Shown here: piece after piece, positions 920 to 24,486 of the stretch
How the letters are laid out: the number at the start of each line of letters is the position of its first letter
Numbering within the stretch: position 1 is the first letter of the stretch
Virus record (IMG/VR): IMGVR_UViG_3300012983_000030
Direction: 5' to 3' (one strand)
Length of the DNA: 64,000 bases
Source: a virus
Lineage: Duplodnaviria; Heunggongvirae; Uroviricota; Caudoviricetes
Notes under the pieces: model-generated
Told to the model about the DNA's origin: nothing
Databases searched by the model: none
What the model saw: the letters and a program-made list of their open reading frames with translations, nothing else
Translations under genes and position numbers: made by a program

Positions 920-2284
920 CTATTTCGTCTTAGTTTGAGTATCTTGTTTATTAGAAGTATTTTTAATCAATTTTTTAATTAAATTATTTCCAATATCTGA
1001 TTGATTAAATGCTTCTAACATTCCAGCTAATTCAGTACCACCGTTTGCTGAAAATAAATCGGTTATTTTATTAATACCAGAAGAAATTCCATCATTTGAA
1101 TTAGCAATTACTTTTAAGTTAGCCTGTGTTAAAGCTTTTGCTTGTTCAATTCCAATTTTTTCATTAGCTTCTACTTGACGAATAGTAATCAAATATTGTT
1201 GATATTGTTCGTTTTCACCAACTTCTTTTGCCAATGTAGTTTGAGCTGTTACTGATGCTAATTGTAATTGTTTTTCTGCTTCGGCTTTTGCTTCACCTTC
1301 TAATTTAATACCTTCTGCATTTTTAGTTTGAGTAACTAGCTTAGCTTCTGCTTCTAATTCAATTTTAGTTTTTTCAGCTTGAGCATTTGTTTCGATTATG
1401 ATTTTTTCTGCTTCAACTTCTAAACGTTTAGTTTCTTTTTTAATTTCAGCATCACGTACTTGTTGTACTTGAATTACTTCCATTTCTTTTTCTTTAGTAA
1501 TTTTAGCTTGCTCTTTAATAGCTTGTTGAGCTTTTTCATGAGCGAGTCCAACTTCTTTAGTTACTTCAGCTTGTTTTTTTCCAACCTCACGCTTAGAATC
1601 TTCATTTTTTAATGCAACTTCTTGTTTAGCAAGAATCTCTGCTTCTGTGGCCAATTTTTGGTTATTAGCGACTGCAATACGAGATGTTTTTTCTACTTCT
1701 GATTGTTTGATTGCCATTGTATCAGCAATAACTGTTGAACCACCAGAATCTCTTACATCCATTAATTCAATGTTCTTTACTGTTTTAACACCCCATTCTT
1801 TAAGTTGTTCTTTTACTGCTTCTGTAAATTTATCACCGTATTGGTCACGTTCATCCATGATGGTTTTTAATTCAGATTTGGCAAGAATTGTACGAATACA
1901 ACCTCTAACAATAGCTAGTAATTGTTCTCTTAAAATAGATTGAGAAGATACTTTTTGAGAAGCAACTGCTGGATTATCAATCGTAAAGAATGAAGTAACA
2001 TCTACCTGAAATGGAATACGATCTTTATCATATGCTTCATAATTTACAATATCAATATTAAAAATTTCAGTTGATAATTCTTTTACATTAACACCTAATT
2101 TTGGTAACCATTCTGGCCAAGCATAATAAACATTACCATCTGCTTGGTCCATACCACGTAAGTATGTTTTATTATTTTGTTGAATTACATGTACATAATT
2201 TAATGGTACTACTGTTCGTAAAGATATAATCCAAGCTATTAAAAAAACGCCTAAAGTAAATAAAATTGTTAAAAAAGCTATCAT
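920..2284 (-). CDS. SPFH/band-7 (flotillin/YqiK-like) membrane protein with a long coiled-coil tail
   Basis: N-terminal transmembrane helix, a central SPFH-like segment, then about 250 aa of highly charged E/K/A/Q-rich heptad-like sequence, as in flotillin or YqiK. Confidence 0.55.
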   Translation of the reverse strand: MIAFLTILFTLGVFLIAWIISLRTVVPLNYVHVIQQNNKTYLRGMDQADGNVYYAWPEWLPKLGVNVKELSTEIFNIDIVNYEAYDKDRIPFQVDVTSFFTIDNPAVASQKVSSQSILREQLLAIVRGCIRTILAKSELKTIMDERDQYGDKFTEAVKEQLKEWGVKTVKNIELMDVRDSGGSTVIADTMAIKQSEVEKTSRIAVANNQKLATEAEILAKQEVALKNEDSKREVGKKQAEVTKEVGLAHEKAQQAIKEQAKITKEKEMEVIQVQQVRDAEIKKETKRLEVEAEKIIIETNAQAEKTKIELEAEAKLVTQTKNAEGIKLEGEAKAEAEKQLQLASVTAQTTLAKEVGENEQYQQYLITIRQVEANEKIGIEQAKALTQANLKVIANSNDGISSGINKITDLFSANGGTELAGMLEAFNQSDIGNNLIKKLIKNTSNKQDTQTKTK

Positions 2285-2405: not shown

Positions 2406-4400
2406 TTATGCGCCAAGAGTTTCTACAGAAACTGTAGTATCTGCACCCATAACTGTAGTATTCAAAAGAATAACTTCAGCTGTATATGTAGGCCATAAGT
2501 AAATATCAATAACTAATTGATTATTTGCAATTACTTGTGGAGTATTATTTGACTCATCGCAGACAACTTGGAATTTTTGAATACCTTCTGCAGAAAGGAT
2601 TGTATTCAAGAAGCTATTGAATTGCAATGTAATTTGCATACGTGTATATGCTGTATTATTTTCAAATAAATGATATCTAGCAGCATCACGTAATACAGTT
2701 TCAATATAAATAACTGTTCTTGCTACGTTAATTCTATCTAAAGCAGATGGTTTAGCTTGTAATGTTCTTTGACCCCAGTTAACATAACCAGCACCTGGAT
2801 TACGAATAATACAGTTGATTTGGTTATCTGTATATAATGTGCCACCTTGAACATTATCATAATATTGAGTTAAACCAGTAGGTGATACAGCAGCTGCGGC
2901 TAATACACCACGATTTAAACCAGCAGGAGCAACCCAAGGCTCATATGCACCCATAATTTTAGCAACATATGCAGAAGGACACATTACGAAATTTGCACGA
3001 CCTTGAACTGAGTCATATGTTTTAACCCAAGGTGAACTTAATGCACCACGATAAGTATTAAAACCTTGAAGGTTCTTTCTCCAATCGATAGCATTTTCCA
3101 TAGAAGTTTCTGTCATTGGAACATCAAATAAACAGAAACAGTCACGACGGTGTTCGGCAATTTCTAACATTTTAGATTGATATGCAACATTACCTTTATT
3201 TACATAACCACTATTCATAAGTAATGAAACATTAACTTGTGAACGGTCACGGAATAATTCCCATGCATTACATAAATCAACATATTTTTTAGCTGCATCT
3301 GTCCAAATACCAGATTGACCATTTTCTAAAGCAATGTTTTCACCAAATGTTGGAACAACTGCTGCGTCTGGATCAATATCTAAGAAATTGTTATTTACAA
3401 ATACTTGAATATAATTAGAAGTACCATTTACAACGTCTTCTAAAAACATTGAATTACCATAATTATCTTGTGCATGATATAATGTACAATATTCAAATGT
3501 TTCAAGAGTTTGCATTACACGACCAATTTTTTCTTTAACTACAATACTAAATGTAGTTTCGTTTGTTTCTGGATAACGACCAACTCTTGCATTTGAATCT
3601 ACAACAGATTCGATTGCACCATCAACAAAATAAGAAATAGTTCCTTGAGTACGATCTTCATTTACTGAAAAATCATATACTGTAAATGTGCCATTCAAAG
3701 CACTTTCTTTTTCTACTGGATCAGTAACTTTCATTCTAGAAACAGCAATTTTAGAATTTTCTTCTAATCCATCTACAACTTCATAAGGAACAGTAACAGT
3801 AACTAAAGTTCTTGGTGTTTCACCAGATTCAACTTCAAGTTTAGTAGGAGCTAAAACGGCATAAGCTCTGTTTTCATTAATTGTACTATCAGCAATAGAA
3901 ATAAATAATTTTCTATTATTTGGATCAGTAGCTGTAACAATAAACGCTGATTCAAAATCTTCTGGTTCAAATAAACCTGAAGCTGAACCAGAGTCACGTG
4001 AATTTTCAGCAGCTGTTATTTCTTCATACCAGTAACCAGCATTTGTAGGTCTTGGTTTATCAGCTGTGTTTACTAAAACAGTAGCTGCGGCCCATACTGC
4101 ATCATTTTCACGATTTTCTGGTAAATCATCTGGATCACCAACTGGAACAACACGTACAAATTGATGTTCTGCAATAGATTCTGAAGCAACTGCTAATGAA
4201 TAACCAGCGTAACCATAACGAGAACTTAATGTACCAAAACGATCAATAAAACCTTGTAATGATGATAATAAAGTTGGTTTAAATACTGGACCATATTCTG
4301 CTTCACCAACATAAGCACATGCAGTAGTAGCATTATCTGCAACTACTCCACTAAGGTCTCTAATGCTTGGGTAAACGCCCGGAAATTTGTAGCTTGCCAT
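2406..4400 (-). CDS. contractile tail sheath protein (T4 gp18-like)
   Basis: Conserved C-terminal motifs shared with T4 gp18: PAGLNRG (T4 has PAGYNRG), FDRINV, and RVVCDxxNNTPxVI followed by a FYIQP-like segment. N-terminal FPGVY-type start. Shine-Dalgarno AAGGA. Confidence 0.85.
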   Translation of the reverse strand: MASYKFPGVYPSIRDLSGVVADNATTACAYVGEAEYGPVFKPTLLSSLQGFIDRFGTLSSRYGYAGYSLAVASESIAEHQFVRVVPVGDPDDLPENRENDAVWAAATVLVNTADKPRPTNAGYWYEEITAAENSRDSGSASGLFEPEDFESAFIVTATDPNNRKLFISIADSTINENRAYAVLAPTKLEVESGETPRTLVTVTVPYEVVDGLEENSKIAVSRMKVTDPVEKESALNGTFTVYDFSVNEDRTQGTISYFVDGAIESVVDSNARVGRYPETNETTFSIVVKEKIGRVMQTLETFEYCTLYHAQDNYGNSMFLEDVVNGTSNYIQVFVNNNFLDIDPDAAVVPTFGENIALENGQSGIWTDAAKKYVDLCNAWELFRDRSQVNVSLLMNSGYVNKGNVAYQSKMLEIAEHRRDCFCLFDVPMTETSMENAIDWRKNLQGFNTYRGALSSPWVKTYDSVQGRANFVMCPSAYVAKIMGAYEPWVAPAGLNRGVLAAAAVSPTGLTQYYDNVQGGTLYTDNQINCIIRNPGAGYVNWGQRTLQAKPSALDRINVARTVIYIETVLRDAARYHLFENNTAYTRMQITLQFNSFLNTILSAEGIQKFQVVCDESNNTPQVIANNQLVIDIYLWPTYTAEVILLNTTVMGADTTVSVETLGA

Positions 4401-4647: not shown

Positions 4648-5526
4648 TTATACTTCAAACATGCATTTTTCAGAAAATAATGCACCTAGATATTGATTTA
4701 ATTTTGGATAAGATTTAGCATTTCCAACTACATCATCAAATACACTTAACCAATCTTCATTTAACCAACTGTCAGATAAATCAAATTTTAAAGTAATTTT
4801 AACATCTTTTATTTTTCGTGGTGTATCTAATTCGGCATCTGGATATAAATTTTTATATACGCTTCTTTTGTGCAATACTTTCGGTGTCATATTAAATTGT
4901 AATATTTCCGGTTTATTAAGCATTTCTAAGAAGTTTTTCTTATTTATAATAATAGGAATATGAGATTCATAATCATAATGTGATTTACAATTTAATTCAT
5001 CTAACAATTCAATAGCATATTCAAATGCATATTGCCATCTAGAACGTTTTTCATTAACTTTATATTTTTCTACTTCATCTTCTAATGTACCTAAACATAC
5101 ATTTAAACTTTTTTTCCAATTATATATTGGATTTAAAGCAAAAAAATCATCATTCATTAAAATGAAATTATCAGAAATGTCTTTACATTCACAAGCTGCT
5201 CTGTAATTTATAATAGAATTTTTCCATTTATCTTGATTTTGATTAGTAGGTAAATAATTTACATTCTTTACCCATGTAGGTTTATATCCAACTAACCAAA
5301 TGTTTCTAAAATTGCAAAATTTAGCAACAGAACGTAGAGAAATTTTTAAATCTTGATTTCGTTCACTTCTTTTTAAGATATATACTAAATCGTATTGCTT
5401 ATCTTCTGGTAAAACTTTAGAAGGATCTATTGCTTTTTTTGGAGGTATTTTAATAGAAGTCCAAGAATGCGTATTTACATTTAGACGTCTAATACCTGGA
5501 ATTAAAGGCTTAGCTACACCCCCCAT
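4648..5526 (-). CDS. Stealth-family hexose-1-phosphoryl transferase (conserved regions CR2-CR4 present)
   Basis: LKISLRSVAKF...IWLVG..P.W matches Stealth CR2; MNDDFF matches CR3; SHIPIIINK matches CR4. Confidence 0.55.
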   Translation of the reverse strand: MGGVAKPLIPGIRRLNVNTHSWTSIKIPPKKAIDPSKVLPEDKQYDLVYILKRSERNQDLKISLRSVAKFCNFRNIWLVGYKPTWVKNVNYLPTNQNQDKWKNSIINYRAACECKDISDNFILMNDDFFALNPIYNWKKSLNVCLGTLEDEVEKYKVNEKRSRWQYAFEYAIELLDELNCKSHYDYESHIPIIINKKNFLEMLNKPEILQFNMTPKVLHKRSVYKNLYPDAELDTPRKIKDVKITLKFDLSDSWLNEDWLSVFDDVVGNAKSYPKLNQYLGALFSEKCMFEV

Positions 5527-5545: not shown

Positions 5546-5935
5546 TTATTTTTTAGTTAATTCTTGAGCTAATTTTTTAGCAGATACTTCTAAAGGATAC
5601 ATTATTCCACCATTAGCTTTTAAGAAATTATAAATTTTAGTTTCTAATTCAGCTTCAGTATTATTTTCTTCTACAGGATATTTACCTTTTAAAATTCCAT
5701 GTATTCTAGAGTAAATACGTTGTGCAACTTCACGCTTGGCTTCATCTGATAATTCAGAAACGATTGCTGAATGATATTCACAAATATCAATTAAAAAATC
5801 TTCGATTTCTTCAAAAGAATCTGCATTAATAATTATACTAGATTCAATATAGTTTAATTTTTTATTAATACTATTTGCAATCTTAGCATATGGATTTAAT
5901 GCTTCTGTAAATAACGTTCTTGTTTTAGACATCAT
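5546..5935 (-). CDS. hypothetical protein
   Basis: ORF with coding-like composition, in an operon with its neighbours. Confidence 0.4.
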   Translation of the reverse strand: MMSKTRTLFTEALNPYAKIANSINKKLNYIESSIIINADSFEEIEDFLIDICEYHSAIVSELSDEAKREVAQRIYSRIHGILKGKYPVEENNTEAELETKIYNFLKANGGIMYPLEVSAKKLAQELTKK

Positions 5936-6771
5936 GCTACAATCTTTTTCTTAGGGTTTCTTCCACCAAAAATAGAATGAGAAGTATTCCAACCTATTTC
6001 TTTTTCTCCATTATATTCAAGAGCTCTTAAGTATTGAATAACTTTATATAATTGTTCTTTAGCCGCAATCGAATATACATTATCCATAATATTTTCAATG
6101 CTAGAAATATCAGAATCTATGTCATCTTTAAATTCATTTTTACGATCATTGATAGGATCATCTGTTGCAATAATAGCATTTTCTAATCTATCAAATTTAG
6201 CATCAGATATTGTAAAGATTTTACGTAATTCAATAAGATAGTTATCAACTTCTTGTGGAGTTAATTCATCTTCTGCATATCTAAAGATGTCTTCTACTAA
6301 TTCATATTGTTTATCTGTTAATCCAAATTCTTCAGCAATAACTTGTTCTATTTTCCAAGTGTCATATAATCTTTGATCTTGAACAGCTTCTTTTAATTCA
6401 GTAACTGATTCTGAGATATCTTTTCCTGATTTAGCTTCCTCTGTACCTTTATCAAAGTCTTCTTTTATATTAGGTAATTGAGAAATCTTTTCAGTTAATT
6501 GTGCAATGTGTTTTATTTCTTCATTACGGATATCTGTTAGAGTATCATGAAACATATCTACAATCCATGGTTCACATTTATCTTCTAATGAAAGAATTTG
6601 GGTATATTCAACTTCAGCTGAAGATTCACTAGCTAATGCTTTAATAATAGCTTGTGCATATAATTCAGTAGCCGGAGTATCTTTTACAGCATTTTCTAAA
6701 GGATTAACTTCAGCTTCCTTTAATTTAACTGATTCTGTAAGAATTGGTTTCTGTTTTGGAATACATCTCAT
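5932..6771 (-). CDS. hypothetical acidic protein
   Basis: 279-aa ORF, D/E-rich; its start overlaps the stop of the downstream gene. Confidence 0.4.
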   Translation of the reverse strand: MRCIPKQKPILTESVKLKEAEVNPLENAVKDTPATELYAQAIIKALASESSAEVEYTQILSLEDKCEPWIVDMFHDTLTDIRNEEIKHIAQLTEKISQLPNIKEDFDKGTEEAKSGKDISESVTELKEAVQDQRLYDTWKIEQVIAEEFGLTDKQYELVEDIFRYAEDELTPQEVDNYLIELRKIFTISDAKFDRLENAIIATDDPINDRKNEFKDDIDSDISSIENIMDNVYSIAAKEQLYKVIQYLRALEYNGEKEIGWNTSHSIFGGRNPKKKIVA

Positions 6772-7954: not shown

Positions 7955-9256
7955 TTAAGCGAAAAAGCGTTTAGAGAAACGTTTTTCTTCTTTAGTTTCA
8001 GCAATGAAATTATCGCAATCTACAGATTCTTTGAAAGCTGCAACGAATTTACCGTATTTACCATCAAAGCAACGTACGCATTCTTTTAATGATTTATTAT
8101 CGAATGTAGCAACGATTTTAGCAATTACACCTTCAGCTAAACCACGAGCAGCTAAAACATTAACCATTCTTACATAATCAGCACCTGATTTTGCAGATTC
8201 TTCGAATCTCTTTAATACACGTTCAGCACATTCTGCAACTGAACAAGATTCAGCAGCAAATGCAGGTTGTTCATTCATATGAGCGCGTAACATTTCATAA
8301 GAAACAGGCTTATCAGCTGAACCATCTGGATTAGCACCCATGAAGTTAGCATAGAACGGATCACCTGTCATGTCATACAAGTCAGCAGCACACCAAGCAG
8401 CGTCTGTACCGTCTTGTTCACATTTATCTAACCATTTTTCAGGAGCAACTTCATAGTTATCTTCGAAATCAGCAACACCAAAATCAAATTCTTCCATTAC
8501 AGGAGCAGCTTCTACATCAAAACCGTCCATAGCTTCAGCAGAATCAAATTCGTTTTCTAAGAAAAGAATACCAGAGTTAGCTTCTTTATTGAAAGCGCCG
8601 ATAACTTTACCAGATTCTGATAATGCAATTTCACGTGCACCAGGTTGTAAAGAACCTTTCATTTCAGAAACGCGAGCAGCAAATTTAGCATAATCTGTCA
8701 TAGATTCACGCATAACTCTGTCAGCTTTAATTACAGACATATGAATTGGAGCTTCGTCAGATTCATCAACTAAGATAGATTCACAAGCCAAAACTCTTTC
8801 TGGATTAATACGGTGTGTACTGAATTTAGCAAATTTGGCTTCTACAGATTCTTTTTGTTCAACGTCAAGTTCAGCAACTTCAACTTCTTCGTTGTCGTCA
8901 TCGGCAAGACTGTCAATAACGTCTTCAACTTCTTCACCGCCCATAACAGCGTCTAAAGCTGGCTTTTCAACGAAGTTAACGTCAGACAACTCATCAGAAG
9001 AAATAACTACGTCTGCAATTTTAGCAGCTAAATCAGCATCAGAAATAACTACAACAGCAGCTTGACCTTGAATAGCCATATCACCTTCAGGAGTAGCACC
9101 GATTTCAGCAACATCACCTTTTTCAAATTCTACATCCATTTCTTCTGTTTCTAAAATTAATTTCTTAGATACAATCCAATTTTTAGATTCTTTTGCAGAT
9201 TCACGTAAAGCTTCACGAGCAACACGAGCTGCCAATCTATTTAAATATTTACTCAT
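7955..9256 (-). CDS. strongly acidic protein, possibly a scaffold or head-core protein (function unknown)
   Basis: 433 aa, very D/E-rich. Codon usage looks like that of a highly expressed gene. Shine-Dalgarno present. Confidence 0.4.
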   Translation of the reverse strand: MSKYLNRLAARVAREALRESAKESKNWIVSKKLILETEEMDVEFEKGDVAEIGATPEGDMAIQGQAAVVVISDADLAAKIADVVISSDELSDVNFVEKPALDAVMGGEEVEDVIDSLADDDNEEVEVAELDVEQKESVEAKFAKFSTHRINPERVLACESILVDESDEAPIHMSVIKADRVMRESMTDYAKFAARVSEMKGSLQPGAREIALSESGKVIGAFNKEANSGILFLENEFDSAEAMDGFDVEAAPVMEEFDFGVADFEDNYEVAPEKWLDKCEQDGTDAAWCAADLYDMTGDPFYANFMGANPDGSADKPVSYEMLRAHMNEQPAFAAESCSVAECAERVLKRFEESAKSGADYVRMVNVLAARGLAEGVIAKIVATFDNKSLKECVRCFDGKYGKFVAAFKESVDCDNFIAETKEEKRFSKRFFA

Positions 9257-9466: not shown

Positions 9467-10504
9467 ATGTCATATGCAATGGATATGTTAAGATGGTGGA
9501 TTAATAAAGATCCATTTACTGAACGTGAATTACAACTTTTAAAAAGAGATAGAAGTACAGATCTTAAAGTATATAACGATTCAGAAGAATATCGTAAAAT
9601 AGTTACAGATAACTTTATAAAGTATATTTCATATGGTAATATTTCCAGTGAAACACATAATGTTACGTTTGGTGATTCAGCTACAGAATTAATCCAACGT
9701 TTATTTAAGCATTATCATGCTGATAATGATAATACATTAGTAGTATACTCAAATAATGAGCATCATAGTGCAAAGAATTGTGTAGATAAATGTAAACATA
9801 CTTTAGAAGTATCATATGATGAAGAAATTCTTTTATGTAAAGTAGATAGAATTGTTAATGAAGCAAAGAAATTTAAAAGTACACTTATTTATATTATAGG
9901 TACTCAAATTTCAAATGGTTTAATTTCACCACAAGACTTTTTTATAAAACTGAGAAAAGAATTAGATAAAAATAACATAGACTATACATTAATTTTAGAT
10001 GATGTACATGGTATGTTATTTGTTCCAAGAGATTATTCTTTATTTGACTATGTTATCTATACTTGTCATGCTTGGGTATTAAATTATGACGCAGGCGTAT
10101 TGATAAGTAATAGAAAAAAGAAAAAATTTGGATATGAAATTGCTAACTGGGCTACTGATTATATGGAAAATATGAATATCTTATTTAAAAGATGGGATAA
10201 AATTCATACTTTCAAAGCAGTTATGATGAATTTCTTTGTAAAATATTTAGTTAATCCAAAAGTAAAACTACCATTATTTGGGTCTGATCAAATATTTGCA
10301 CCTTATTTAATTAATGATGAACATTTAATTGATGAAAAACTTGCAGATGTATTAGAAGATTATCACATTAGATGTGAAGGAGTAGATAGTCCACAAATTT
10401 ATTTTAGATTTAGAATTTCTGAAATTATAATGTATACAGAAGAAGATTTACAAAAACTTGAAAAAGGATTTAAGATTTTAGATAGTATTTTATTAGAAGA
10501 ATAA
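9467..10504 (+). CDS. hypothetical protein
   Basis: 345-aa ORF with Shine-Dalgarno AAAGGAG. Confidence 0.45.
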   Translation: MSYAMDMLRWWINKDPFTERELQLLKRDRSTDLKVYNDSEEYRKIVTDNFIKYISYGNISSETHNVTFGDSATELIQRLFKHYHADNDNTLVVYSNNEHHSAKNCVDKCKHTLEVSYDEEILLCKVDRIVNEAKKFKSTLIYIIGTQISNGLISPQDFFIKLRKELDKNNIDYTLILDDVHGMLFVPRDYSLFDYVIYTCHAWVLNYDAGVLISNRKKKKFGYEIANWATDYMENMNILFKRWDKIHTFKAVMMNFFVKYLVNPKVKLPLFGSDQIFAPYLINDEHLIDEKLADVLEDYHIRCEGVDSPQIYFRFRISEIIMYTEEDLQKLEKGFKILDSILLEE

Positions 10505-10530
10505 AGGCTCTTAAAAAGAGCCTTCTTTTT
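10503..10530. terminator. bidirectional terminator between convergent genes
   Basis: Hairpin GGCTCTTAAAAAGAGCC followed by a T-run. Confidence 0.55.
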
Positions 10531-11494
10531 AACTAATTACTATTCTACTTACTCTGTCTTCTCGTTCAACATGTATATTCATTCTAATCATTTCAATATA
10601 ATGCTGTGGTAAAGGAGCATCTGTTAAGCAACCCCAGACATTTACATTAAATGCTGTACCATAAATATAACCTTCACCTTTTAATTTATCTTTTGAAGTA
10701 GGATATCTATTTATATTAGGAATTCCAAATACTGTAAATATCTGATTTTCTGCACCATTTATTGTAGGTGAAGAATATTTATGCCAAATTTGAGCATCTG
10801 CACAACGTAAAATAAATTTATCTCTAATATATTGTGCTTCATCTCTAGTTTTACATAATACAACAGCAGTATAGGTACCTGTAATGGCTTTTGCTTTATA
10901 TACTGAAGGAACTTTTTTACCAGTAGGTCTTAAATCGTCTGCAGAAAAAAGTCTTGGATAAATTTTTAGATTTTTTTCTCTTTGCTTTATTACTTCACCA
11001 TTAATAGCTATTTCAAAAGATAGACCGGCTTCTCTATGAATTTTAAAAATTTGAGCTTCTGTTCCACGTAAATGGTCATCAGTTGCTATAATTACGGTAT
11101 CCCCTTCTTCCCATGTATCTTCGTTAATAGGAATATCAAAATACCATTGTTTATAACGATTTCCTGTACCCCAAAAAGCAGTTTCAATATCATTTTGTAA
11201 ATAAGCCAGTAATGGATAATTGACATCTACATTTTTTTCTTTATTTATATTTTTACGTAATAAATAAGTATCAAATATTTCTTCTGTTGTTAATTCATCT
11301 ACTTGAAAAACTCTAGACTCATCCCATAACCAATTTTCATCATCGGTTACAACATCATTTTGATCTCCACCTTTTTTACGTGGGTCTGCAATACGCATTT
11401 GATTCAATAATACACTTCCAATAGCTAAATCTATTTCATTTAAACTACTGTGAAATCTACTATTTGTTGGTATTTTTAAATCTATTGTTGGCAT
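10529..11494 (-). CDS. hypothetical protein (possibly structural)
   Basis: 321-aa ORF; no motif I can recognise. Confidence 0.4.
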   Translation of the reverse strand: MPTIDLKIPTNSRFHSSLNEIDLAIGSVLLNQMRIADPRKKGGDQNDVVTDDENWLWDESRVFQVDELTTEEIFDTYLLRKNINKEKNVDVNYPLLAYLQNDIETAFWGTGNRYKQWYFDIPINEDTWEEGDTVIIATDDHLRGTEAQIFKIHREAGLSFEIAINGEVIKQREKNLKIYPRLFSADDLRPTGKKVPSVYKAKAITGTYTAVVLCKTRDEAQYIRDKFILRCADAQIWHKYSSPTINGAENQIFTVFGIPNINRYPTSKDKLKGEGYIYGTAFNVNVWGCLTDAPLPQHYIEMIRMNIHVEREDRVSRIVIS

Positions 11495-11531
11495 AATTCA
11501 CTCACTCTTAATAAACATAAGTAATAGAACT

Positions 11532-12221
11532 TTACTTGTTATATTTATTGAGTATTTTATCTATTAAGGCCCATCGTTCTTCTTTTTTTACTTTTTTACA
11601 TAAATTTGTATCGTGTGATCTATAATAGTATAAAACTTTATGAATACTTGCTATTGGCATTTGCTTTAATATTTGTAAATGAAAATCAAAATCTTCACAC
11701 ATTTTTAAGGATTCATCAATAGCACAAGTTTTTAATAACGTTTGTCTAAACATCATTCCACCTGCATAACCGGTACCCGCTAATTTTTTATTGTTAACAA
11801 TGTCAGCAAAATCCCAAATTTCAGGTCTAGTAATATGTTGAGAAGTATTTCCAAATCTTTTTAATTCACAACATACTGCGCCAATCATTTCATTATTTTC
11901 TAAAAATTCTAATTCTTCTTTAATTAAATCTTTATGAAAAATATCATCACTACCTAATCTAACAATATACTTACCTTTAGCCAATGAAAATGCTTTGTTT
12001 ACAGATTTATTCATACCGAGATTTTTTTCATTTTTATATAATTTGATTTTATTTGATAACTTTGTAATATTATCATAATTTATATTTGGAGACGCATCAT
12101 TAATACAAATTATTTCAATATTTTGATATGATTGTCGTAATAAAGATTTTAAGCATTCATTTAAATAATTAAGTTTTATTTCATATAAAGTTAAAATTAT
12201 TGATACTAAAGGTTTTTGCAT
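11532..12221 (-). CDS. family 2 glycosyltransferase
   Basis: N-terminal GT-A signature: VSIILTLYE...CL.S...Q....EIICINDAS. Confidence 0.6.
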   Translation of the reverse strand: MQKPLVSIILTLYEIKLNYLNECLKSLLRQSYQNIEIICINDASPNINYDNITKLSNKIKLYKNEKNLGMNKSVNKAFSLAKGKYIVRLGSDDIFHKDLIKEELEFLENNEMIGAVCCELKRFGNTSQHITRPEIWDFADIVNNKKLAGTGYAGGMMFRQTLLKTCAIDESLKMCEDFDFHLQILKQMPIASIHKVLYYYRSHDTNLCKKVKKEERWALIDKILNKYNK

Positions 12222-12223
12222 AT

Positions 12224-12826
12224 TTATTCTTCTTCGATTAAATCGTAATTAGATAATGACCCAGGACGTCTCATATAATGATAATATATATTATTGTCAG
12301 GACATTCAAATATATTTTTAGTATGATTATAAATCCATCTTTTAAATGTACTATCTTCTCCTGCTTCTCTTTTTCCAGGAAATTTTAAATTATATTTATT
12401 AAGAAATTCTCTTTTTATAATAGAAGGAATTATACAACCGTATTCATTTTTACCGTGTTTATTATCTTTATCAATTACTCTAATTCCACGAATTAAATCA
12501 TATTGATTTGCATAACTATATAATTCTTCAAAGTATTTTATATCAACATAATCATCACTATCTATAAAGCCAATATATTCACCTTTAGCTCGTGACATTC
12601 CATAATTTCGTGCAATACCAGCACCTTCATTTCTTTTTGATAATATTTTTATTCTAATATCTTTTAATTGATAGTCTTGTAAAATTTTAAGTGAATTATC
12701 TGTTGAACCGTCATTAACACAAATAATTTCAATTTCTTTTAGTGTTTGATTTATTGCGGAATCTAAACATCTAGCTAAATATTTTTCACTATTGTAAACT
12801 GGAATTATAATAGAAACTTTTATCAA
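12224..12826 (-). CDS. family 2 glycosyltransferase
   Basis: Canonical GT2 N-terminus: SIIIPVYN...CLDS..NQT...EIICVNDGSTDNS, with a DSDD motif further on. Confidence 0.7.
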   Translation of the reverse strand: MIKVSIIIPVYNSEKYLARCLDSAINQTLKEIEIICVNDGSTDNSLKILQDYQLKDIRIKILSKRNEGAGIARNYGMSRAKGEYIGFIDSDDYVDIKYFEELYSYANQYDLIRGIRVIDKDNKHGKNEYGCIIPSIIKREFLNKYNLKFPGKREAGEDSTFKRWIYNHTKNIFECPDNNIYYHYMRRPGSLSNYDLIEEE

Positions 12827-13299
12827 TGTATAAATCCTTGTTTTTGTAAATAATCTATAAATTCAATTAAATGAGAACACATTCCAGGTAAATTGTATGG
12901 ATTATTTGGAGCGCGATCTGTTTTTCGATGATAATTTGGAAATCTTGCTCCTGTTCCAGCTCCCGCAGTACGATTTGCTTTATCAAAACGAAATCTATAA
13001 TTTGGACAGCTACATCTTACTAAAATTTCATGTTTAGATAGACTAGGTTTAGGTTGAAAGCCTTTAATTATTTCTTCTTCCGTTAAACCATCTGTTCTTT
13101 TTACACCTTTGAATGAAACAATACACGAATAACTACTTGGTTTACTAGAAGAGCTTACATCAGCATAAAAAGTAATAGTACTAACACCTTCATCATATCT
13201 TAAATCTAAATGATTTATTCTAGCAGATTGTGTTAAATTATTTATAGATTTAGGTGCTACGTTTTTAGTACCTTTATATAAAGCTCTATATACTGGCAT
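12823..13299 (-). CDS. SWIM zinc-finger-like protein
   Basis: CxC...CxH pattern (CSCPNY...CSH). It sits next to the VRR-NUC and helicase genes, as in known phage modules. Confidence 0.4.
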   Translation of the reverse strand: MPVYRALYKGTKNVAPKSINNLTQSARINHLDLRYDEGVSTITFYADVSSSSKPSSYSCIVSFKGVKRTDGLTEEEIIKGFQPKPSLSKHEILVRCSCPNYRFRFDKANRTAGAGTGARFPNYHRKTDRAPNNPYNLPGMCSHLIEFIDYLQKQGFIH

Positions 13300-18785: not shown

Positions 18786-19946
18786 ATGACACAAGTTGTA
18801 AACGAAGAACAATTAGATTATTGTGATGTATTAATTAAACCAAAACGCTCTACATTAAATTCAAGAAAAGAGCCGAATGTATATAGAAATTATACATTTA
18901 AATGGTCTAATAGAACAGTAGAAGGAAATGGATTAACTGTAGCTAATATGGCAACTACTGGTACATTTGAAATGGCAAAAATTTTTCAATATAATAAAAT
19001 GTTCTGTTGTTTACAAAAGCATTATTCTTTTGATAGGCTTTATGAATTTTTTACTGAAAATAATCTTTCTGCCAAAACTTTTGATGGACACATTTGTGGA
19101 AATGATTATATCTTTTTATCAACTGGCGTAAATACTGAAGACATAAGTAAGACAAAACGTGTTTTAGATACGGGTCTTTGTAAAAATTTATGTATTGATA
19201 TTGCTAATGGTTATATTCCAAAACTTTTAGAAACAGTAAGTTTATTTAGAAAGGAATATCCAGATATTGTTATAATGGTTGGCAATGTTGTAACCGGAGA
19301 TATGGTCCAAGATTTAATATTAGCCGGAGCAGACTTGATTAAGTGCGGGATTGGACCGGGCGCTAACTGTGTTACTAGAAAGCAAACCGGTGTTGGACGT
19401 CCACAATTATCTACAGTACTAGATTGTGCAGAAGCAGCTCATGCTGTAGGAGGATATATCTGCGCTGATGGTGGAATTACTTGTTATGGTGATATAGCAA
19501 AAGCTTATGGAGCAGGTGCTGATTTTGTAATGGTTGGATCGTTAGTCGCAGGTGCAGATGAAGCAGAAGGTGATATAATTGAAAAATGTTATCGTACTAA
19601 TGAATATACATTTTCATATGAGCCTATAGATGAAGCAAATACAACAGACTGTTTTCCAGAAAAACCAATGTTTAGTATAAAACAATTTAAACTTGCATAT
19701 GGAATGTCATCTAAATATGCACAAGATAAACATTGGAATGGTATGGCTAATTACAGAACATCCGAAGGTATTGTTACATTAAAAGAATATACTGGTCCTG
19801 TACAAAATATTATTGATGATTATTTAGGCTCATTAAGAAGTACCATGACTTATATAAATTGTACAAAATTAAAGGATTTTCCAAAAGTAACTACTTTTTA
19901 TAAAGTTAGCAGAATTTTAAATAATGATGGAAAGGGTATTTTATGA
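18786..19946 (+). CDS. guaC: GMP reductase / IMP dehydrogenase-family oxidoreductase (GuaC-like)
   Basis: Catalytic-loop signature GIGPGANCVTRKQTGVGRPQ. The flanking TIM-barrel motifs (IDIANGY, ADLIKCG) match GMP reductase. Confidence 0.65.
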   Translation: MTQVVNEEQLDYCDVLIKPKRSTLNSRKEPNVYRNYTFKWSNRTVEGNGLTVANMATTGTFEMAKIFQYNKMFCCLQKHYSFDRLYEFFTENNLSAKTFDGHICGNDYIFLSTGVNTEDISKTKRVLDTGLCKNLCIDIANGYIPKLLETVSLFRKEYPDIVIMVGNVVTGDMVQDLILAGADLIKCGIGPGANCVTRKQTGVGRPQLSTVLDCAEAAHAVGGYICADGGITCYGDIAKAYGAGADFVMVGSLVAGADEAEGDIIEKCYRTNEYTFSYEPIDEANTTDCFPEKPMFSIKQFKLAYGMSSKYAQDKHWNGMANYRTSEGIVTLKEYTGPVQNIIDDYLGSLRSTMTYINCTKLKDFPKVTTFYKVSRILNNDGKGIL

Positions 19947-21158: not shown

Positions 21159-21233
21159 AGCGAGGTAGAGCAGTGGTAGCTCACAAGGCTCATAACCTTG
21201 GGGTCGGAGGTTCAATTCCTTCCCTCGCAACCA
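21159..21233 (+). tRNA. tRNA-Met(CAT): tRNA-Met/Ile2 (anticodon CAT)
   Basis: Cloverleaf traced by hand: D-arm TAGAGCAGTGGTAGCTC, anticodon loop CTCATAA, T-loop TTCAATT, CCA encoded. There is an A1:A72 mismatch. Confidence 0.6.
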
Positions 21234-21490
21234 AAATAATAAAATTTATACTTCTTTAAGCACGTACAGCAATTTTAACAAAAATCAAACTTTTACTTTG
21301 ATCAATAGTGCTTAGTCGAAGAAATAAAGACAAATCCAATTATCTATTCTAGATTAAATAATTGGCGGTAATCCTTGCCGCACAAGGAAGTTTGCATAGA
21401 ACTTTTCTATGTAGGTAGTATAAAGGATGCCTGATCTGCAGTCAAAGTTTTTGAGGTTAAATATACCCTTAAACACCTTTATTTTTTTTT

Positions 21491-21575
21491 GGAGGGTTCG
21501 CATAATGGTATTGCAGCGGTCTTGAAAACCGCCGACCGAAAGGTTGTGAGAGTTCGAGTCCCTCACCCTCCGCCA
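21491..21575 (+). tRNA. tRNA-Ser(TGA): tRNA-Ser (anticodon TGA), type II
   Basis: Acceptor GGAGGGT/ACCCTCC, anticodon arm GCGGT-CTTGAAA-ACCGC, long variable arm, CCA encoded. Confidence 0.6.
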
Positions 21576-21582
21576 AAAATTT

Positions 21583-21658
21583 GGTCCGTTGGGAAAACAG
21601 TTAATCCGCCTCCCTGTCACGGAGGAGATAATCGGGGCAGCACCGATACGGATCGCCA
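21583..21658 (+). tRNA. tRNA-Asp(GTC): tRNA-Asp (anticodon GTC)
   Basis: Anticodon arm CCTCC-CTGTCAC-GGAGG, T-arm ATCGG...CCGAT, acceptor pairs, CCA encoded. Confidence 0.55.
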
Positions 21659-21664
21659 ATTTTT

Positions 21665-21749
21665 GGATTCGTGGCGAAATGGGTAAATACAAGGGATTTA
21701 AAATTCCTTGGTCATCATGACTTTATGAGTTCAACTCTTATCGAATCCA
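21665..21749 (+). tRNA. tRNA-Leu(TAA): tRNA-Leu (anticodon TAA), type II
   Basis: Acceptor GGATTCG/CGAATCC, anticodon loop TTTAAAA, variable-arm hairpin GTCATCATGAC. Confidence 0.55.
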
Positions 21750-21821
21750 CTAAAAAACTAGTACAAATCTAATATAATCGCCATTTTAATAGTTCTGTAC
21801 AGTAAATAAAGGAGTATTAAA

Positions 21822-22754
21822 ATGAAAATAAATGAAGATCTTATAAATAAAGCTTTGGAAGTAGCAACATCTCAAAAAGAATTTTATAGAATAATTGGTT
21901 ATAAAAATGGAAATGTTGGAAGTAATACAGATAAACGCTATAAAAAATTTTTGTTAGATACAAAAAATATTAATATAATTGAATACTTTTTAGAAAAACA
22001 AAAATTGTTAAATAAAAGTATAAATCAAGAAGAAAAAATATGTAAAAATTGTGGAAAAATATTTGTTGGTAAATATTCAAAAAATTGTTCTGGAGAATTT
22101 TGTTGTTTAAAATGCAGTAGAATATATGTTGCCAATTTAAATAAAACAGAAAAAAGAGAAAAAATACGTTTAGGATTGAAAAGACATTATGATAAATTAA
22201 TTGATTTTATACCAAAATATCAATCTAAAATTAAACCTTTTTATAAAAAATGTATTATTTGTGGTAAAGAATTTAAAACAATAAAAGCTAAAACAAAAAC
22301 ATGTAGTCATAGTTGTGCTTCAAAATTGGCATATAAAGTTTCAAAAGAAAAATATCAAGATTGGAAATTTATACAAGGAGGTTTTAGAGAAAAATCTTCA
22401 AGAGGTAAACAAGGTTGGTATAAAAATATTTTTTGTAATTCTCAATGGGAATTGGCTTTTGTAATATATTGTTTAGATCATAATATAAAAATAGAAAGAA
22501 ATAAAGAAAACTTTATATATTTTTATAAAAATAAACAACATTTATTTTATCCTGATTTTATTGTTAATGGAAAATTAGTTGAAATAAAAAATTATTGGCG
22601 TGAAATAAATGATATTAAAATAAATGCAGTTAAACAAATAAAAGATATAGATATTTTATATACAAAAGAGTTAGAATATGTTTTTGATTATATCTTAAAT
22701 AAATATGGAAAAGATAAAAGACATATTTATGAATTATATGAAAAAACATTATAG
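21822..22754 (+). CDS. zinc-finger protein, probably a homing-endonuclease-like gene embedded in the tRNA array
   Basis: Several CxxC pairs. The N-terminal region resembles that of the HNH gene at 34849. Its position between tRNAs is typical of mobile endonucleases. Confidence 0.4.
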   Translation: MKINEDLINKALEVATSQKEFYRIIGYKNGNVGSNTDKRYKKFLLDTKNINIIEYFLEKQKLLNKSINQEEKICKNCGKIFVGKYSKNCSGEFCCLKCSRIYVANLNKTEKREKIRLGLKRHYDKLIDFIPKYQSKIKPFYKKCIICGKEFKTIKAKTKTCSHSCASKLAYKVSKEKYQDWKFIQGGFREKSSRGKQGWYKNIFCNSQWELAFVIYCLDHNIKIERNKENFIYFYKNKQHLFYPDFIVNGKLVEIKNYWREINDIKINAVKQIKDIDILYTKELEYVFDYILNKYGKDKRHIYELYEKTL

Positions 22755-22866
22755 ATTGGGTTCTATTGTCTAATAACTAAGGCATCAGGTTTTTTATGAA
22801 GTAATTAAATAAGGTTCGATTCCTTTACTGTCTATTCAGTCTAATGGTTAGTTTACTTCATTTATT

Positions 22867-22939
22867 ACACTCATAGGCTAATTGGACAAACCCAAAGTCT
22901 TCTAAACTTTTATTACAGGTTCGAGTCCTGTTGAGTGTG
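22867..22939 (+). tRNA. tRNA-Arg(TCT): tRNA-Arg (anticodon TCT)
   Basis: Acceptor ACACTCA/TGAGTGT, anticodon arm AAAGT-CTTCTAA-ACTTT, T-arm ACAGG-TTCGAGT-CCTGT. Confidence 0.55.
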
Positions 22940-23228
22940 CTAGCATTTTATTCCCAGTGCGAGGGATTAAGATTAATTGAGTAAATCTAACACACGAATG
23001 ATAGAGGCAACCACCGAAAGAGCTAATAGGAATTTTCTTAGGTAAGTCGTGATATCCGAAAGATTTATTGTCCTAACTCTGCCTAACGCTGATTCGCACC
23101 TTGTACATAAAGTATCAATTAATCGTTTATATAGGATGTCATATTTCGTAAGAATATGAGGGTCAGGATTAAGTTCACAAAAGAGATAAAGTAGATGTTA
23201 ACCTCTACCTATCCTATATTTTTTAGTT

Positions 23229-23304
23229 GGGGGTATAGCTCAGCTGGGAGAGCACCTGCTTTGCAAGCAGGGGGTCAGGAGTTCGAACCTCCTTACCTCC
23301 ACCA
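23229..23304 (+). tRNA. tRNA-Ala(TGC): tRNA-Ala (anticodon TGC)
   Basis: Matches the GGGGGTATAGCTCAGCTGGGAGAGC consensus, G3:U70 pair, anticodon loop TTTGCAA, CCA encoded. Confidence 0.8.
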
Positions 23305-23311
23305 TTTTATA

Positions 23312-23438: not shown

Positions 23439-23452
23439 GCCGTTTTTTTTTT

Positions 23453-23544: not shown

Positions 23545-23555
23545 AAATTAATAAT

Positions 23556-23630: not shown

Positions 23631-23643
23631 TTTTTTTTTTTCA

Positions 23644-23735: not shown

Positions 23736-23737
23736 AT

Positions 23738-23814: not shown

Positions 23815-23867
23815 GTTTACTATATACTTTGTTCTAAAAGGTAGATAAATCTTCTAGGACATTAAGT

Positions 23868-24481: not shown

Positions 24482-24486
24482 TTTAT

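What the first reader, a model, noticed from the sequence alone, without database searches (positions are those of the whole stretch)
4648..5526. Stealth-family hexose-1-phosphoryl transferase next to the tail sheath, with two GT2 glycosyltransferases at 11532-12826
Stealth conserved regions CR2, CR3 and CR4 are recognisable (SLRS...W, MNDDFF, HIP). Stealth enzymes make sugar-phosphate polymers, such as capsule in Neisseria and the GlcNAc-1-phosphotransferase in eukaryotes. Together with two GT-A family 2 enzymes, this gives the phage a glycan-building toolkit. That toolkit could decorate virion proteins, modify host teichoic acids to exclude superinfection, or modify DNA.
Basis: partly seen in the sequence, partly recalled or inferred. 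Interest (0 to 1): 0.6.

Follow-up and report, generated by a model that had tools for sequence, protein, structure and literature searches.

The report
Compact phage Stealth-type sugar-phosphate transferase
The gene beside the tail sheath really does encode a stripped-down relative of the Stealth sugar-phosphate transferases; it belongs to a very large, unannotated phage family usually found among virion genes and often beside glycosyltransferases, but what it modifies is still unknown.

Summary
ORF 4648-5526 (-) lies next to the tail sheath gene, and two GT2 genes lie at 11532-12826.

Sequence evidence for Stealth membership is weak with a single sequence: Pfam Stealth_CR2 only, 26.9 bits, below the 39.4-bit cutoff. 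Deeper methods are decisive:
- Family profile against canonical bacterial Stealth: 99.7%, E=2e-24, with CR1-CR4 colinear.
- The Mg-binding Asp-Asp, the catalytic His and the phosphate-binding Arg are near-invariant. The CR4 "C[LI]ND" motif is not conserved.

The protein is a soluble "mini-Stealth" with no spacer segments. The family has about 3,800 clusters at 50% identity. Every GenBank phage record found calls it "hypothetical".

Links to glycosyltransferases:
- GT2-miniStealth fusion proteins exist.
- The window's two GT2s match the two halves of a fused GT2-GT2 lying one gene from a mini-Stealth in a T4-like phage.
- Other family members sit beside GT4-type enzymes.
- Within this phage's own lineage the GT2 slot holds zero to three enzymes, while the mini-Stealth is constant.

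My best reading is a late-expressed sugar-1-phosphate transferase that modifies virion proteins. Modification of the host envelope or of DNA is not excluded. I rate it a new variant of a known kind.

The parts
4648..5526 (-). Mini-Stealth gene, 292 aa. Predicted soluble nucleotide-sugar:acceptor sugar-1-phosphate transferase.
5392..5526 (-). N-terminal extension, residues 1-45, often starting 'MGG'. Specific to the sheath-adjacent clade and absent from most family members. Function unknown.
   Evidence: Alignment A1. pLDDT below 50 for residues 1-26. Most family members begin at profile position 41.
5374..5394 (-). CR1-like motif YDLVYIL, residues 45-51. D46 aligns with the invariant CR1 Asp of canonical Stealth.
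   Evidence: D46 97%, V48 88%, Y49 90% conserved. Aligned to 'ID.V..WV' in the global hhalign.
5122..5364 (-). CR2, residues 55-135. Contains D-L-K-I-S-L-R-S (59-66) and N125-D126-D127, which correspond to GNPT N406/D407/D408 (Mg and ribose binding).
   Evidence: Pfam stretch 55-135. Profile against GNPT 7s6n E=1e-5. D126 and D127 100%, R65 99% conserved. Residue roles from PMC9388126.
4849..4971 (-). CR3-like region, residues 186-226. H189-x-P191 corresponds to the GNPT His956 general base. R221 corresponds to GNPT Arg986 / CpsY Arg419. N226 is invariant.
   Evidence: H189 100%, P191 98%, R221 95%, N226 99% conserved. H and R aligned to the canonical invariant H and FR. Roles.
4651..4752 (-). 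CR4-like C-terminal region, residues 259-292. 'WLSVFD' stands in place of 'xxC[LI]ND', and the terminal 'F-x-x-K-C/S-x-[YF]-E' matches the canonical 'FP..S.FE'.
   Evidence: hhalign alignments. 11 of 27 relatives give a weak PF17103 hit. S261 99%, E291 97% conserved, and position 263 variable.
12224..12826 (-). GT2a: soluble family-2 (GT-A) glycosyltransferase, 200 aa, TTG start, DSDD motif.
   Evidence: PF00535 E=6.5e-38. 59% identical to the N-terminal half of the fused GT2-GT2 of L004. No TM segment.
11532..12221 (-). GT2b: soluble family-2 glycosyltransferase, 229 aa, GSDD motif.
   Evidence: PF00535 E=2.8e-25. 50% identical over 227 aa to the C-terminal half of the fused GT2-GT2 of L004.
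12823..13299 (-). p158: conserved gene forming the upstream border of the variable glyco-cassette slot.
   Evidence: Syntenic in L001, L026, L106, L028 and L032. PHROG 18980, unknown function.
10529..11494 (-). p321: conserved gene of unknown function forming the downstream border of the variable slot. Followed by a bidirectional terminator-like hairpin at 10503-10525.
   Evidence: Synteny. Terminator-like site. No family or PDB match. AF2 failed.
2406..4400 (-). Tail sheath gene. It lies immediately downstream of the mini-Stealth after a 247-nt gap with no terminator-like site. This adjacency is conserved in all syntenic relatives.

Best explanation
ORF 4648-5526 encodes a compact, soluble member of the Stealth superfamily. 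It keeps only the catalytic core (CR1-CR4) and has no spacer segments.

Inferred mechanism, by homology with GNPT and CpsY: the enzyme binds an NDP-sugar, most likely a UDP-hexose or UDP-HexNAc, through N125-D126-D127 and Mg2+. R221 holds the beta-phosphate. H189 deprotonates an acceptor hydroxyl, which attacks the beta-phosphate. The sugar-1-phosphate is transferred as a phosphodiester and a nucleoside monophosphate (UMP if the donor is UDP-linked) is released.

The gene appears to be transcribed with the tail sheath in a late structural operon. I propose that the acceptor is a cytoplasmic virion component, such as a capsid, tail or sheath-associated protein or a glycan already on it. The two soluble GT2 enzymes in the nearby variable cassette would then extend or prepare that glycan, giving an anionic, strain-variable virion glycan.

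What is shown: fold, family relationship, conservation of catalytic residues, gene context, and fusions and co-occurrence with glycosyltransferases. What is inferred: the donor, phosphodiester transfer itself, and above all the acceptor.

My confidence in the enzyme class is about 0.85. My confidence that virion proteins are the acceptor is about 0.4; the figure given below is for the whole statement.
For: Family and fold:
- hhalign of the family against 11 canonical bacterial Stealth proteins gives 97.2%, E=4e-11. With 132 family representatives it gives 99.7%, E=1.9e-24 over 261 columns, with CR1-CR4 colinear.

Catalytic residues:
- D126 and D127 100%, H189 100%, R221 95%, D46 97% conserved. 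Their roles are taken from PMC9388126 and PMC10668966.

Cytoplasmic and late:
- No TM segment in the mini-Stealth, GT2a or GT2b.
- No terminator-like site between the upstream structural-operon genes, the mini-Stealth and the sheath.

Links to glycosyltransferases:
- GT2-miniStealth fusions P0121, P0127 and P0129.
- The window's GT2a and GT2b match the two halves of a fused GT2-GT2 lying one gene upstream of a mini-Stealth, just downstream of Gp23, in a T4-like phage.
- A pyruvyltransferase + GT2 + GT2 + mini-Stealth cluster in L019.
- GT4, or GT4+CAP59, as the immediate neighbour in 7 of 32 non-redundant viral loci, alongside epimerase/dehydratase and FkbM methyltransferase genes.

Context among virion genes, in unrelated phages:
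- Beside the sheath (window and 7 syntenic relatives).
- A few genes downstream of the Gp23 major capsid gene, after two small ORFs, the GT2 gene(s) and a 295-aa ORF.
- Between TerS and TerL, and upstream of TerS in Fionnbharth.
- Between the major tail protein and the head-tail adaptor, with a glycosyltransferase beside the capsid gene, in Streptomyces phage TurkishDelight.
- After the portal and head genes in an SU10-like podovirus, and after TerL and portal.
- Beside a BppL-like fibre gene.

Precedents: virion glycosylation by phage-encoded glycosyltransferases in mycobacteriophages (cited), and Stealth proteins annotated in Megaviridae.
Against: - No direct evidence for any acceptor.
- Some family members lie in early or replication regions: Gordonia phage BrutonGaster between SSB/primase and endonuclease VII, and Microbacterium phage Cece after rIIA/rIIB. 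One lies beside nucleotide-metabolism genes.
- Canonical Stealth enzymes act on polysaccharides, not proteins (except GNPT, which acts on N-glycans).
- The CR4 Asn (GNPT N1151, a Mg and phosphate ligand whose mutation lowers activity 200-fold) is not conserved. The family instead has its own invariant D241-x-K243. Active-site chemistry may therefore differ.
- GNPT Glu389 has no clear equivalent here; it may be N107.
- The GT2 slot is empty in L028 and L032, so cooperation with GT2s is not obligatory.
- The promoter scan was uninformative: fewer hits than in shuffled sequence.
Confidence: 0.4

Rival explanations
1. Host-envelope remodelling. The mini-Stealth, together with the GT2s and in relatives a pyruvyltransferase, acts at the cytoplasmic face on the host's undecaprenyl-linked polysaccharide precursors (capsule, O-antigen, teichoic-acid-like or secondary cell-wall polymer). 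It adds a sugar-phosphate branch. The host's own flippase then exports an altered surface glycan that blocks superinfection or stops progeny sticking to debris.
For: This is what canonical Stealth enzymes do. In 5 of the 11 plasmid loci I fetched, they sit beside glycosyltransferase genes (GT2 in three) within flippase- or EpsG-type EPS loci, e.g. GT2-GT2-Stealth-flippase in L013. A pyruvyltransferase (PF04230) accompanies the module in L001 and L019, as is typical of polysaccharide repeat-unit tailoring. GtrB-like PHROG hits for GT2a. A strain-variable cassette fits serotype-like diversification. The family also occurs in bacterial and CPR genomes.
Against: No priming phosphoglycosyltransferase, flippase or polymerase appears in any of the phage loci inspected. 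The gene is embedded in late virion operons of lytic-type large phages, which leaves little time to renew the envelope. Many members have no glycosyltransferase nearby.
Confidence: 0.25
2. DNA hypermodification. The enzymes decorate hydroxylated bases (5hmC, 5hmU or 5hoC) in phage DNA with sugar or sugar-phosphate to evade restriction.
For: Phage GT-A-fold (TarP/JGT-like) and GT-B enzymes do glycosylate DNA, and such clusters can lie near terminase and replication genes. In L019 the module lies within about 8 kb of genes encoding TK, NrdD, ThyX, a ThyA-like protein, dCMP deaminase, dNMP kinase and NUDIX. The BrutonGaster and Cece homologues lie in replication or early regions. Several members abut terminase genes.
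Against: No hydroxymethylase, ThyA-like gene or TK was found in the 64-kb window; this is not conclusive, because the genome is larger. Placement in a late operon beside the sheath is atypical for replication-coupled modification. Transfer of a sugar-phosphate to a nucleobase by a Stealth enzyme has no precedent in the papers read. Most neighbours are virion genes.
Confidence: 0.15
3. Same fold, different chemistry. The family has diverged into an ordinary retaining or inverting glycosyltransferase, or another nucleotide-dependent transferase, rather than a sugar-1-phosphate transferase.
For: CR4 C[LI]ND is lost, and the Asn equivalent to GNPT N1151 is variable. New invariant residues D241, K243 and N226 are absent from canonical Stealth. 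The Pfam CR2 score is below the gathering threshold and there is no CR1 or CR3 hit. The Stealth fold is a GT-A derivative.
Confidence: 0.1

Closest known systems
Bacterial Stealth capsule/EPS hexose-1-phosphate transferases (N. meningitidis CsaB/SacB and CsxA/XcbA; M. tuberculosis CpsY, PDB 8J2N)
   Different: About 240-aa core with no S1-S3 spacers or extra domains. CR1 runs directly into CR2. CR4 C[LI]ND is replaced by S-[TV]-x-D. Has its own invariant D241-x-K243 and N226. Encoded by phages within virion modules, with no export or polymerase genes. 15-19% identity.
Eukaryotic GlcNAc-1-phosphotransferase GNPTAB (PDB 7S05, 7S6N/7SJ2, 7DXI, 9BGG)
   Different: GNPT is a 1,256-aa membrane-anchored multidomain enzyme with Notch, DMAP and EF-hand inserts. 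N1151 and E389 are not conserved in the phage family. Donor and acceptor are unknown here.
Mycobacteriophage virion glycosylation systems (Che8, Corndog, Myrna; Freeman et al. 2023, as cited in PMC12619734 and PMC12363180)
   Same: Phage-encoded soluble glycosyltransferases that modify capsid and tail-tube subunits in the cytoplasm. Actinophage homologues of the mini-Stealth lie among capsid, tail and terminase genes.
   Different: In what I could read, those systems are described as glycosyltransferases only. No Stealth-type or phosphodiester component is reported, and I could not read the primary paper. No glycoprotein data exist for any phage that carries a mini-Stealth.
Giant-virus (Megaviridae) 'Stealth proteins' and virus-encoded glycosylation clusters
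   Same: Viral Stealth-fold proteins of about 280 aa are the next-best viral structural matches (E=2.5e-9 and 1.6e-7). They occur in viruses that build their own virion glycans.
   Different: Weaker match (TM 0.48-0.63) than to the two unnamed approximately 230-aa viral proteins (E=1e-16). Eukaryotic viruses. No functional data that I found.
Phage DNA glycosyltransferases (T4 alpha/beta-GT; 5mYOX- or ThyS-associated GT-A and GT-B enzymes)
   Same: Phage-encoded, soluble and NDP-sugar dependent. Some have a GT-A fold and occur as multi-enzyme cassettes.
   Different: Those enzymes transfer sugar, not sugar-phosphate. They cluster with base-hydroxylating enzymes, which were not found here. They carry different active-site motifs (R...DDD...EDY/F).

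Membership tests
Stealth (Sperisen et al. 2005; Pfam PF17101/PF11380/PF17102/PF17103) | CR2: the roughly 100-residue, most conserved region (ELRYSLRS ... NDD) | tested here: met
   PF11380 E=5.9e-6 but 26.9 bits, below the 39.4 gathering score. 27 of 27 relatives hit it, best 3.9e-9. Family profile against GNPT CR2 E=1e-5. hhalign 97-99.7%. It passes by profile methods and falls below threshold by Pfam's own cutoff.
Stealth | CR1 motif IDVVYTF or similar at the N-terminus of the core | tested here: inconclusive
   YDLVYIL is present. D46, V48 and Y49 are 88-97% conserved and align to canonical 'ID.V..WV' in the global hhalign. There is no PF17101 hit, and the canonical W-V-(D/N)-G-x-D-P-x-W continuation is absent, so CR1 runs directly into CR2.
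Stealth | CR3, about 50 residues, with the catalytic His (GNPT H956) and the strictly conserved Arg (GNPT R986 / CpsY R419) | tested here: met
   H189-x-P191 (100% and 98%) and R221 (95%) align to the canonical invariant H and F-R. In the shallower alignment the Arg register differed. There is no PF17102 hit. Roles.
Stealth | CR4 with the almost universal tetrapeptide CLND/CIND | tested here: not met
   The sequence here is SVFD. The family consensus is S-[TV]-x-D, and the Asn position is variable (S, T, D, N, Y or F). Only the Asp and the C-terminal 'F-P-x-K-S-x-Y-E' resemble canonical CR4. PF17103 hits are weak, in 11 of 27 relatives, best 0.0045.
Stealth | Stealth catalytic-domain fold, distinct from other GT-A-like folds | tested here: met
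Stealth | Metal- and donor-binding N-D-D at the end of CR2 (GNPT N406/D407/D408; CpsY N322/D324) | tested here: met
   N125 95%, D126 100%, D127 100% conserved. Aligned.
Stealth | Enzymatic transfer of hexose-1-phosphate with release of NMP | not testable with these tools
   Needs a biochemical assay. See the next steps.
Glycosyltransferase family 2 (GT-A), for ORFs 12224-12826 and 11532-12221 | PF00535 above the gathering score, with a DxD-type motif | tested here: met
   130.7 and 89.6 bits against a cutoff of 23.3. DSDD and GSDD are visible in the translations. Specific NCBIfam equivalogs all fall far below their cutoffs, so specificity is unknown.
Phage virion-glycosylation system (mycobacteriophage type) | Glycans demonstrably attached to capsid or tail subunits, and dependent on the phage enzymes | not testable with these tools
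   Only gene context is available.
Phage DNA sugar-hypermodification cluster | Co-located base-hydroxylating enzyme (ThyA-like hydroxymethylase or 5mYOX) with nucleotide-pool enzymes | tested here: not met
   None was found in the 64-kb window among the ORFs scanned or by tblastn with L019 seeds. The rest of the genome is unseen. L019 does have a ThyA-like gene about 8 kb away.

The most novel reading that the evidence does not exclude
The mini-Stealth family is a widespread, previously unrecognised phage system for phosphoglycosylation of virions. On this reading the enzyme primes structural proteins by attaching a sugar-1-phosphate directly to a protein hydroxyl or to a first sugar. That would explain why it persists alone in many phages and in syntenic relatives whose GT2 slot is empty. 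Interchangeable glycosyltransferase and pyruvyltransferase cassettes would then elaborate this primer into strain-specific anionic glycans. These glycans could alter adsorption, aggregation, or recognition by hosts or immune systems. This would be a new kind of post-translational modification for bacteriophage particles.
Probability: 0.2. Interest if true: 0.8.

Novelty: new variant of a known kind. Interest (0 to 1): 0.6.

Why it matters
Stealth enzymes are known from bacterial capsules and from the eukaryotic lysosomal-targeting enzyme. I found no report of them in bacteriophages. Yet this compact form makes up a family of about 3,800 clusters at 50% identity. It is present in myo-, sipho- and podoviruses from rumen and environmental metagenomes and in cultured actinophages, where every GenBank record calls it hypothetical.

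If it phosphoglycosylates virions, it adds a charged, acid-labile modification to the emerging topic of phage glycosylation. That matters for phage therapy (immune recognition), for phage-host specificity, and for annotating PHROG 7999.

At about 240 aa it is also the smallest natural Stealth catalytic core I saw. That makes it useful for mechanistic work and for chemoenzymatic synthesis of sugar-phosphate polymers.

The idea can be tested directly in tractable systems: Mycobacterium phage Fionnbharth gp6 and Streptomyces phage TurkishDelight gp22.

Tried and rejected
- Megablast of 10.5 kb against GenBank phages found no match.
- phmmer of the single protein against PDB found nothing, and NCBIfam found nothing. 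An alignment-based profile was needed.
- A homologue search seeded with the zebrafish GNPT CR2 fragment returned only short eukaryotic exon fragments and was wasted. Canonical full-length bacterial Stealth proteins were obtained instead from plasmid records.
- I tested whether the 321-aa gene after GT2b is homologous to the 295-aa gene between GT2-GT2 and the mini-Stealth in L004. It is not. The L004 protein has a weak phosphoribosyltransferase-like hit and a DxDG(V) HAD-like motif.
- My narrow GT2 HMM found GT2 genes near only the closest relatives. That first suggested no general link to glycosyltransferases. The Pfam scan of neighbours corrected this by showing GT4-type enzymes instead.
- The Waterfoul overexpression paper was no help, because its gp6 is the terminase. 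The Freeman 2023 paper is not in the library.
- I tried to identify p321 and p433 as capsid or scaffold proteins. PDB phmmer gave nothing meaningful. p433 is very acidic (net charge -44), so scaffold-like is only a guess.
- The sigma-70 promoter scan gave fewer sites than shuffled sequence and was uninformative.
Full report
**1. The observation**

The window is about 29% G+C. From roughly 14.4 kb down to its left end it carries a block of - strand genes. ORF 4648-5526 (-) encodes 292 aa.

The next gene downstream, 2406-4400 (-), is a tail sheath (PF17482 E=2.8e-11; PHROG 23 E=7e-68). The range 11532-12826 holds two family-2 glycosyltransferase ORFs of 200 and 229 aa (PF00535 E=6.5e-38 and 2.8e-25).

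**2. Is it a Stealth protein?**

Single-sequence evidence is thin:
- Only PF11380 (Stealth_CR2) matches, at E=5.9e-6 and 26.9 bits, below Pfam's gathering score of 39.4.
- Nothing matches CR1, CR3 or CR4 even at E up to 10.
- NCBIfam and phmmer against PDB are silent.
- PHROGs places it in family 7999, 'unknown function' (E=1.4e-44).

Deeper methods settle the question:
- A profile of 27 homologues (A1) hits the GNPT catalytic domain (7s6n, E=1e-5). All 27 hit CR2, and 11 hit CR4 weakly.
- I built a reference alignment of 11 annotated bacterial Stealth proteins from plasmid records (A2). hhalign of A1 against A2 gives 97.2%, E=4e-11.
- A broader alignment of 132 family representatives gives 99.7%, E=1.9e-24 over 261 columns, with CR1, CR2, CR3 and CR4 aligned in order.
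- The AF2 model is confident (pLDDT 88, pTM 0.84). Foldseek ranks 1-12 are all Stealth structures.

**3. Catalytic residues**

The GNPT and CpsY papers assign these roles:
- The second Asp of the N-D-D motif binds Mg2+.
- His956 is the general base.
- Arg986 (CpsY Arg419) holds the transferred beta-phosphate and is strictly conserved.
- Asn1151 in CR4 is a further Mg and phosphate ligand.

The equivalents here, measured over 132 diverse members, are N125 (95%), D126 (100%), D127 (100%), H189 (100%) and R221 (95%). R221 aligns to the canonical Arg in the deeper comparison.

Two features differ from canonical Stealth:
- The CR4 tetrapeptide C[LI]ND is S-[TV]-x-D, and the Asn position is variable.
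- The family has its own invariant residues: D241, K243, N226, S261 and E291.

The spacer segments between the CRs are missing. CR1 ('DLVYIL') runs straight into CR2. The typical member is about 240 aa. I therefore call it a compact, divergent Stealth subfamily, a 'mini-Stealth'. The mechanism is inferred by homology; the different CR4 leaves some room for altered chemistry.

**4. Size and distribution of the family**

- A full HMMER scan of 1.84 billion representatives finds 3,817 clusters at E up to 1e-3 and 2,410 at E up to 1e-10.
- In GenBank phages, tblastn finds it only in actinophages: Cluster K-type mycobacteriophages, and Gordonia, Streptomyces and Microbacterium phages. Identity is 22-31%, and it is always annotated 'hypothetical protein'.
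- IMG/VR contains at least 545 copies matching just two peptide patterns.
- In genome collections it occurs in Saccharibacteria and other CPR bacteria, Elusimicrobia and actinobacteria.
- The closest relatives (65% and 46% identity) are on contigs binned with MAGs: L107 is labelled water-buffalo rumen, and L106 is a Succinivibrionaceae bin. ENA sample labels for other relatives look to me like rumen data sets. This phage therefore probably comes from a rumen or gut community, but that is an inference.
- BFVD's best hits are two unnamed viral proteins of about 230 aa, followed by 'Stealth protein' entries from Megaviridae.
- Literature searches found no description of a phage Stealth enzyme.

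**5. Relation to the GT2 genes**

Evidence that the enzymes work together:
- Three proteins fuse an N-terminal GT2 domain to a C-terminal mini-Stealth: P0121, P0127 and P0129.
- In a T4-like phage of about 224 kb (L004), the gene order is Gp23, two small ORFs, a 542-aa GT2-GT2 fusion, a 295-aa protein, then the mini-Stealth. The window's GT2a and GT2b match the N- and C-terminal halves of that fusion, at 59% and 50% identity.
- A second cassette type, pyruvyltransferase + GT2 + GT2, accompanies the mini-Stealth both in a relative of this phage (L001) and in another T4-like phage (L019), at 50-57% identity between the two.
- Among the four nearest genes at 32 non-redundant IMG/VR loci, the commonest Pfam families are GT4-type glycosyltransferases. 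A GT4+CAP59 bifunctional enzyme, a nucleotide-sugar epimerase/dehydratase and an FkbM methyltransferase also appear.
- Canonical bacterial Stealth genes likewise sit beside GT2 genes.

Evidence against obligatory coupling:
- In this phage's lineage the backbone is conserved: helicase, p92, p120, VRR-NUC, p158, [slot], p321, p433, p94, p231, p279, p129, mini-Stealth, sheath.
- The slot contents vary. It holds GT2a+GT2b in the window and L026, GT2a alone in L106, pyruvyltransferase+GT2+GT2a in L001, and nothing in L028 and L032. The mini-Stealth is constant.
- Terminator-like hairpins follow p321 and p433. None lies between p94 and the end of the sheath gene (consensus matches only).

My reading is that the mini-Stealth is a core late gene and the glycosyltransferase cassette is a swappable accessory.

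**6. Where the gene sits in other phages**

Among virion genes:
- Beside the sheath (this lineage).
- A few genes downstream of the major capsid gene (L004/L005).
- Between TerS and TerL (L020/L021), and two genes upstream of TerS (Fionnbharth gp6).
- Between the major tail protein and the head-tail adaptor, with a 678-aa glycosyltransferase between the capsid and tail genes (TurkishDelight gp22).
- After the portal and head genes of an SU10-like podovirus, and after TerL and portal.
- After baseplate, fibre and endolysin genes, and beside a BppL-like fibre gene.

Exceptions:
- BrutonGaster gp105 lies among replication genes.
- Cece gp215 follows rIIA/rIIB.
- The L019 copy lies beside a nucleotide-metabolism block that includes a ThyA-like gene.

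**7. Mechanism and rivals**

All three enzymes lack hydrophobic segments. No flippase, polymerase or priming transferase appears in any phage locus I inspected. The acceptor is therefore met in the cytoplasm.

- **Best explanation (about 0.4).** The predominance of virion-module contexts across unrelated phage types makes virion proteins the best-supported acceptor. Precedents are the glycosylation of mycobacteriophage capsid and tail-tube proteins (cited) and giant-virus glycosylation machinery.
- **Host envelope (about 0.25).** Lipid-linked host envelope precursors are the classical Stealth substrate, so this rival remains strong.
- **DNA (about 0.15).** GT-A enzymes do glycosylate phage DNA, so DNA modification cannot be excluded. 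However, no base-hydroxylating enzyme was found in the window.
- **Different chemistry (about 0.1).** The fold may have been retained while the reaction changed. The altered CR4 keeps this open.

**8. Verdict**

The finding is real and the family assignment is right in substance. The protein is a new, compact, phage-borne variant of a known enzyme kind, and its target is unknown.

Interest is moderate to high. The family is very large and unannotated, it sits in tractable model phages, and it may point to phosphoglycosylation of phage particles.

Noticed in passing
window 21159-35626: 23 tRNA genes, all on the + strand, covering 18 amino-acid specificities (Met, Ser, Leu, Gly and Trp each occur twice; Lys and Asp are absent). 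They are interspersed with ORFs, including an HNH-like endonuclease (21822-22754) and a PHROG 850 'RNA-binding protein' (26701-28266).
   Followed up: partly
window 920-2284 (-): A 454-aa SPFH/Band 7 protein (PF01145 E=4e-13) with a strongly hydrophobic N-terminus (KD19 2.69 at residue 2). It lies directly downstream of the tail sheath, where a tail tube gene would be expected.
   Followed up: no
window 10529-13299 and loci L001, L026, L106, L028, L032: A hypervariable 'glyco-cassette' slot lies between conserved genes p158 and p321. It holds two GT2s, one GT2, pyruvyltransferase plus two GT2s, or nothing. The same cassette variants recur in unrelated T4-like phages (L004, L019), which suggests horizontal exchange.
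   Followed up: yes
window 9467-10504 (+): A 345-aa ORF on the opposite strand is inserted between p321 and p433. It is absent from the syntenic relative L001, where the gap is 118 nt. It is bounded by a bidirectional terminator-like hairpin at 10503-10525 and has no match in Pfam, PHROGs, NCBIfam or PDB.
   Followed up: partly
window 7955-9256 (-): The 433-aa protein is extremely acidic (net charge -44). It carries an insertion of about 87 residues (261-347) relative to L001, L029 and L032. It may be a scaffold or internal protein. p231 and p279 are also acidic (-23 and -24).
   Followed up: partly
window 5392-5526 (-), residues 1-45 of the mini-Stealth: The sheath-adjacent clade carries a disordered N-terminal extension that often begins 'MGG(I/V)(A/S)KP'. 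Most family members lack it. Its purpose is unknown; targeting or docking is a guess.
   Followed up: no
L004 9114-10001 (+): In the T4-like phage, the gene between GT2-GT2 and the mini-Stealth encodes a 295-aa protein. It has a weak phosphoribosyltransferase-like N-terminal half (PF00156 E=1e-4) and a 'DIDGVL' HAD-like motif. It may be a sugar-nucleotide or phosphatase accessory and is unrelated to the window's p321.
   Followed up: partly
window 29652-30812 (+): An F420-0:gamma-glutamyl ligase-like ORF (PF01996 E=1.6e-43). Its listed GTG start overlaps tRNA-Tyr and tRNA-Gln (29593-29756), so the true start is probably further downstream. This is an unusual enzyme for a phage.
   Followed up: no
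window 18786-19946 (+) and 51291-52646 (+): An IMPDH/GMP-reductase-family protein (PF00478 E=8e-54), and a DUF2201 metallopeptidase plus VWA-like protein (PF13203 and PF09967).
   Followed up: no
window 5932-6771 (-): The 279-aa protein gives weak sub-threshold NCBIfam hits to encapsulin ferritin-like cargo families (EncB family E=1e-4; TIGR04535 E=1.4e-3). This may be compositional.
   Followed up: no
L111, L112, L116, L117, L125 (Saccharibacteria MAGs) and L110, L114, L118: Mini-Stealth homologues occur on long contigs (120-480 kb) of CPR bacteria and Elusimicrobia. They may be chromosomal or prophage copies, and their neighbourhoods were not examined.
   Followed up: no
L044, L045, L054: Viral loci in which a pyruvyltransferase-like gene lies about 3-4 kb from a mini-Stealth, with no GT2 detected by my HMM.
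   Followed up: no
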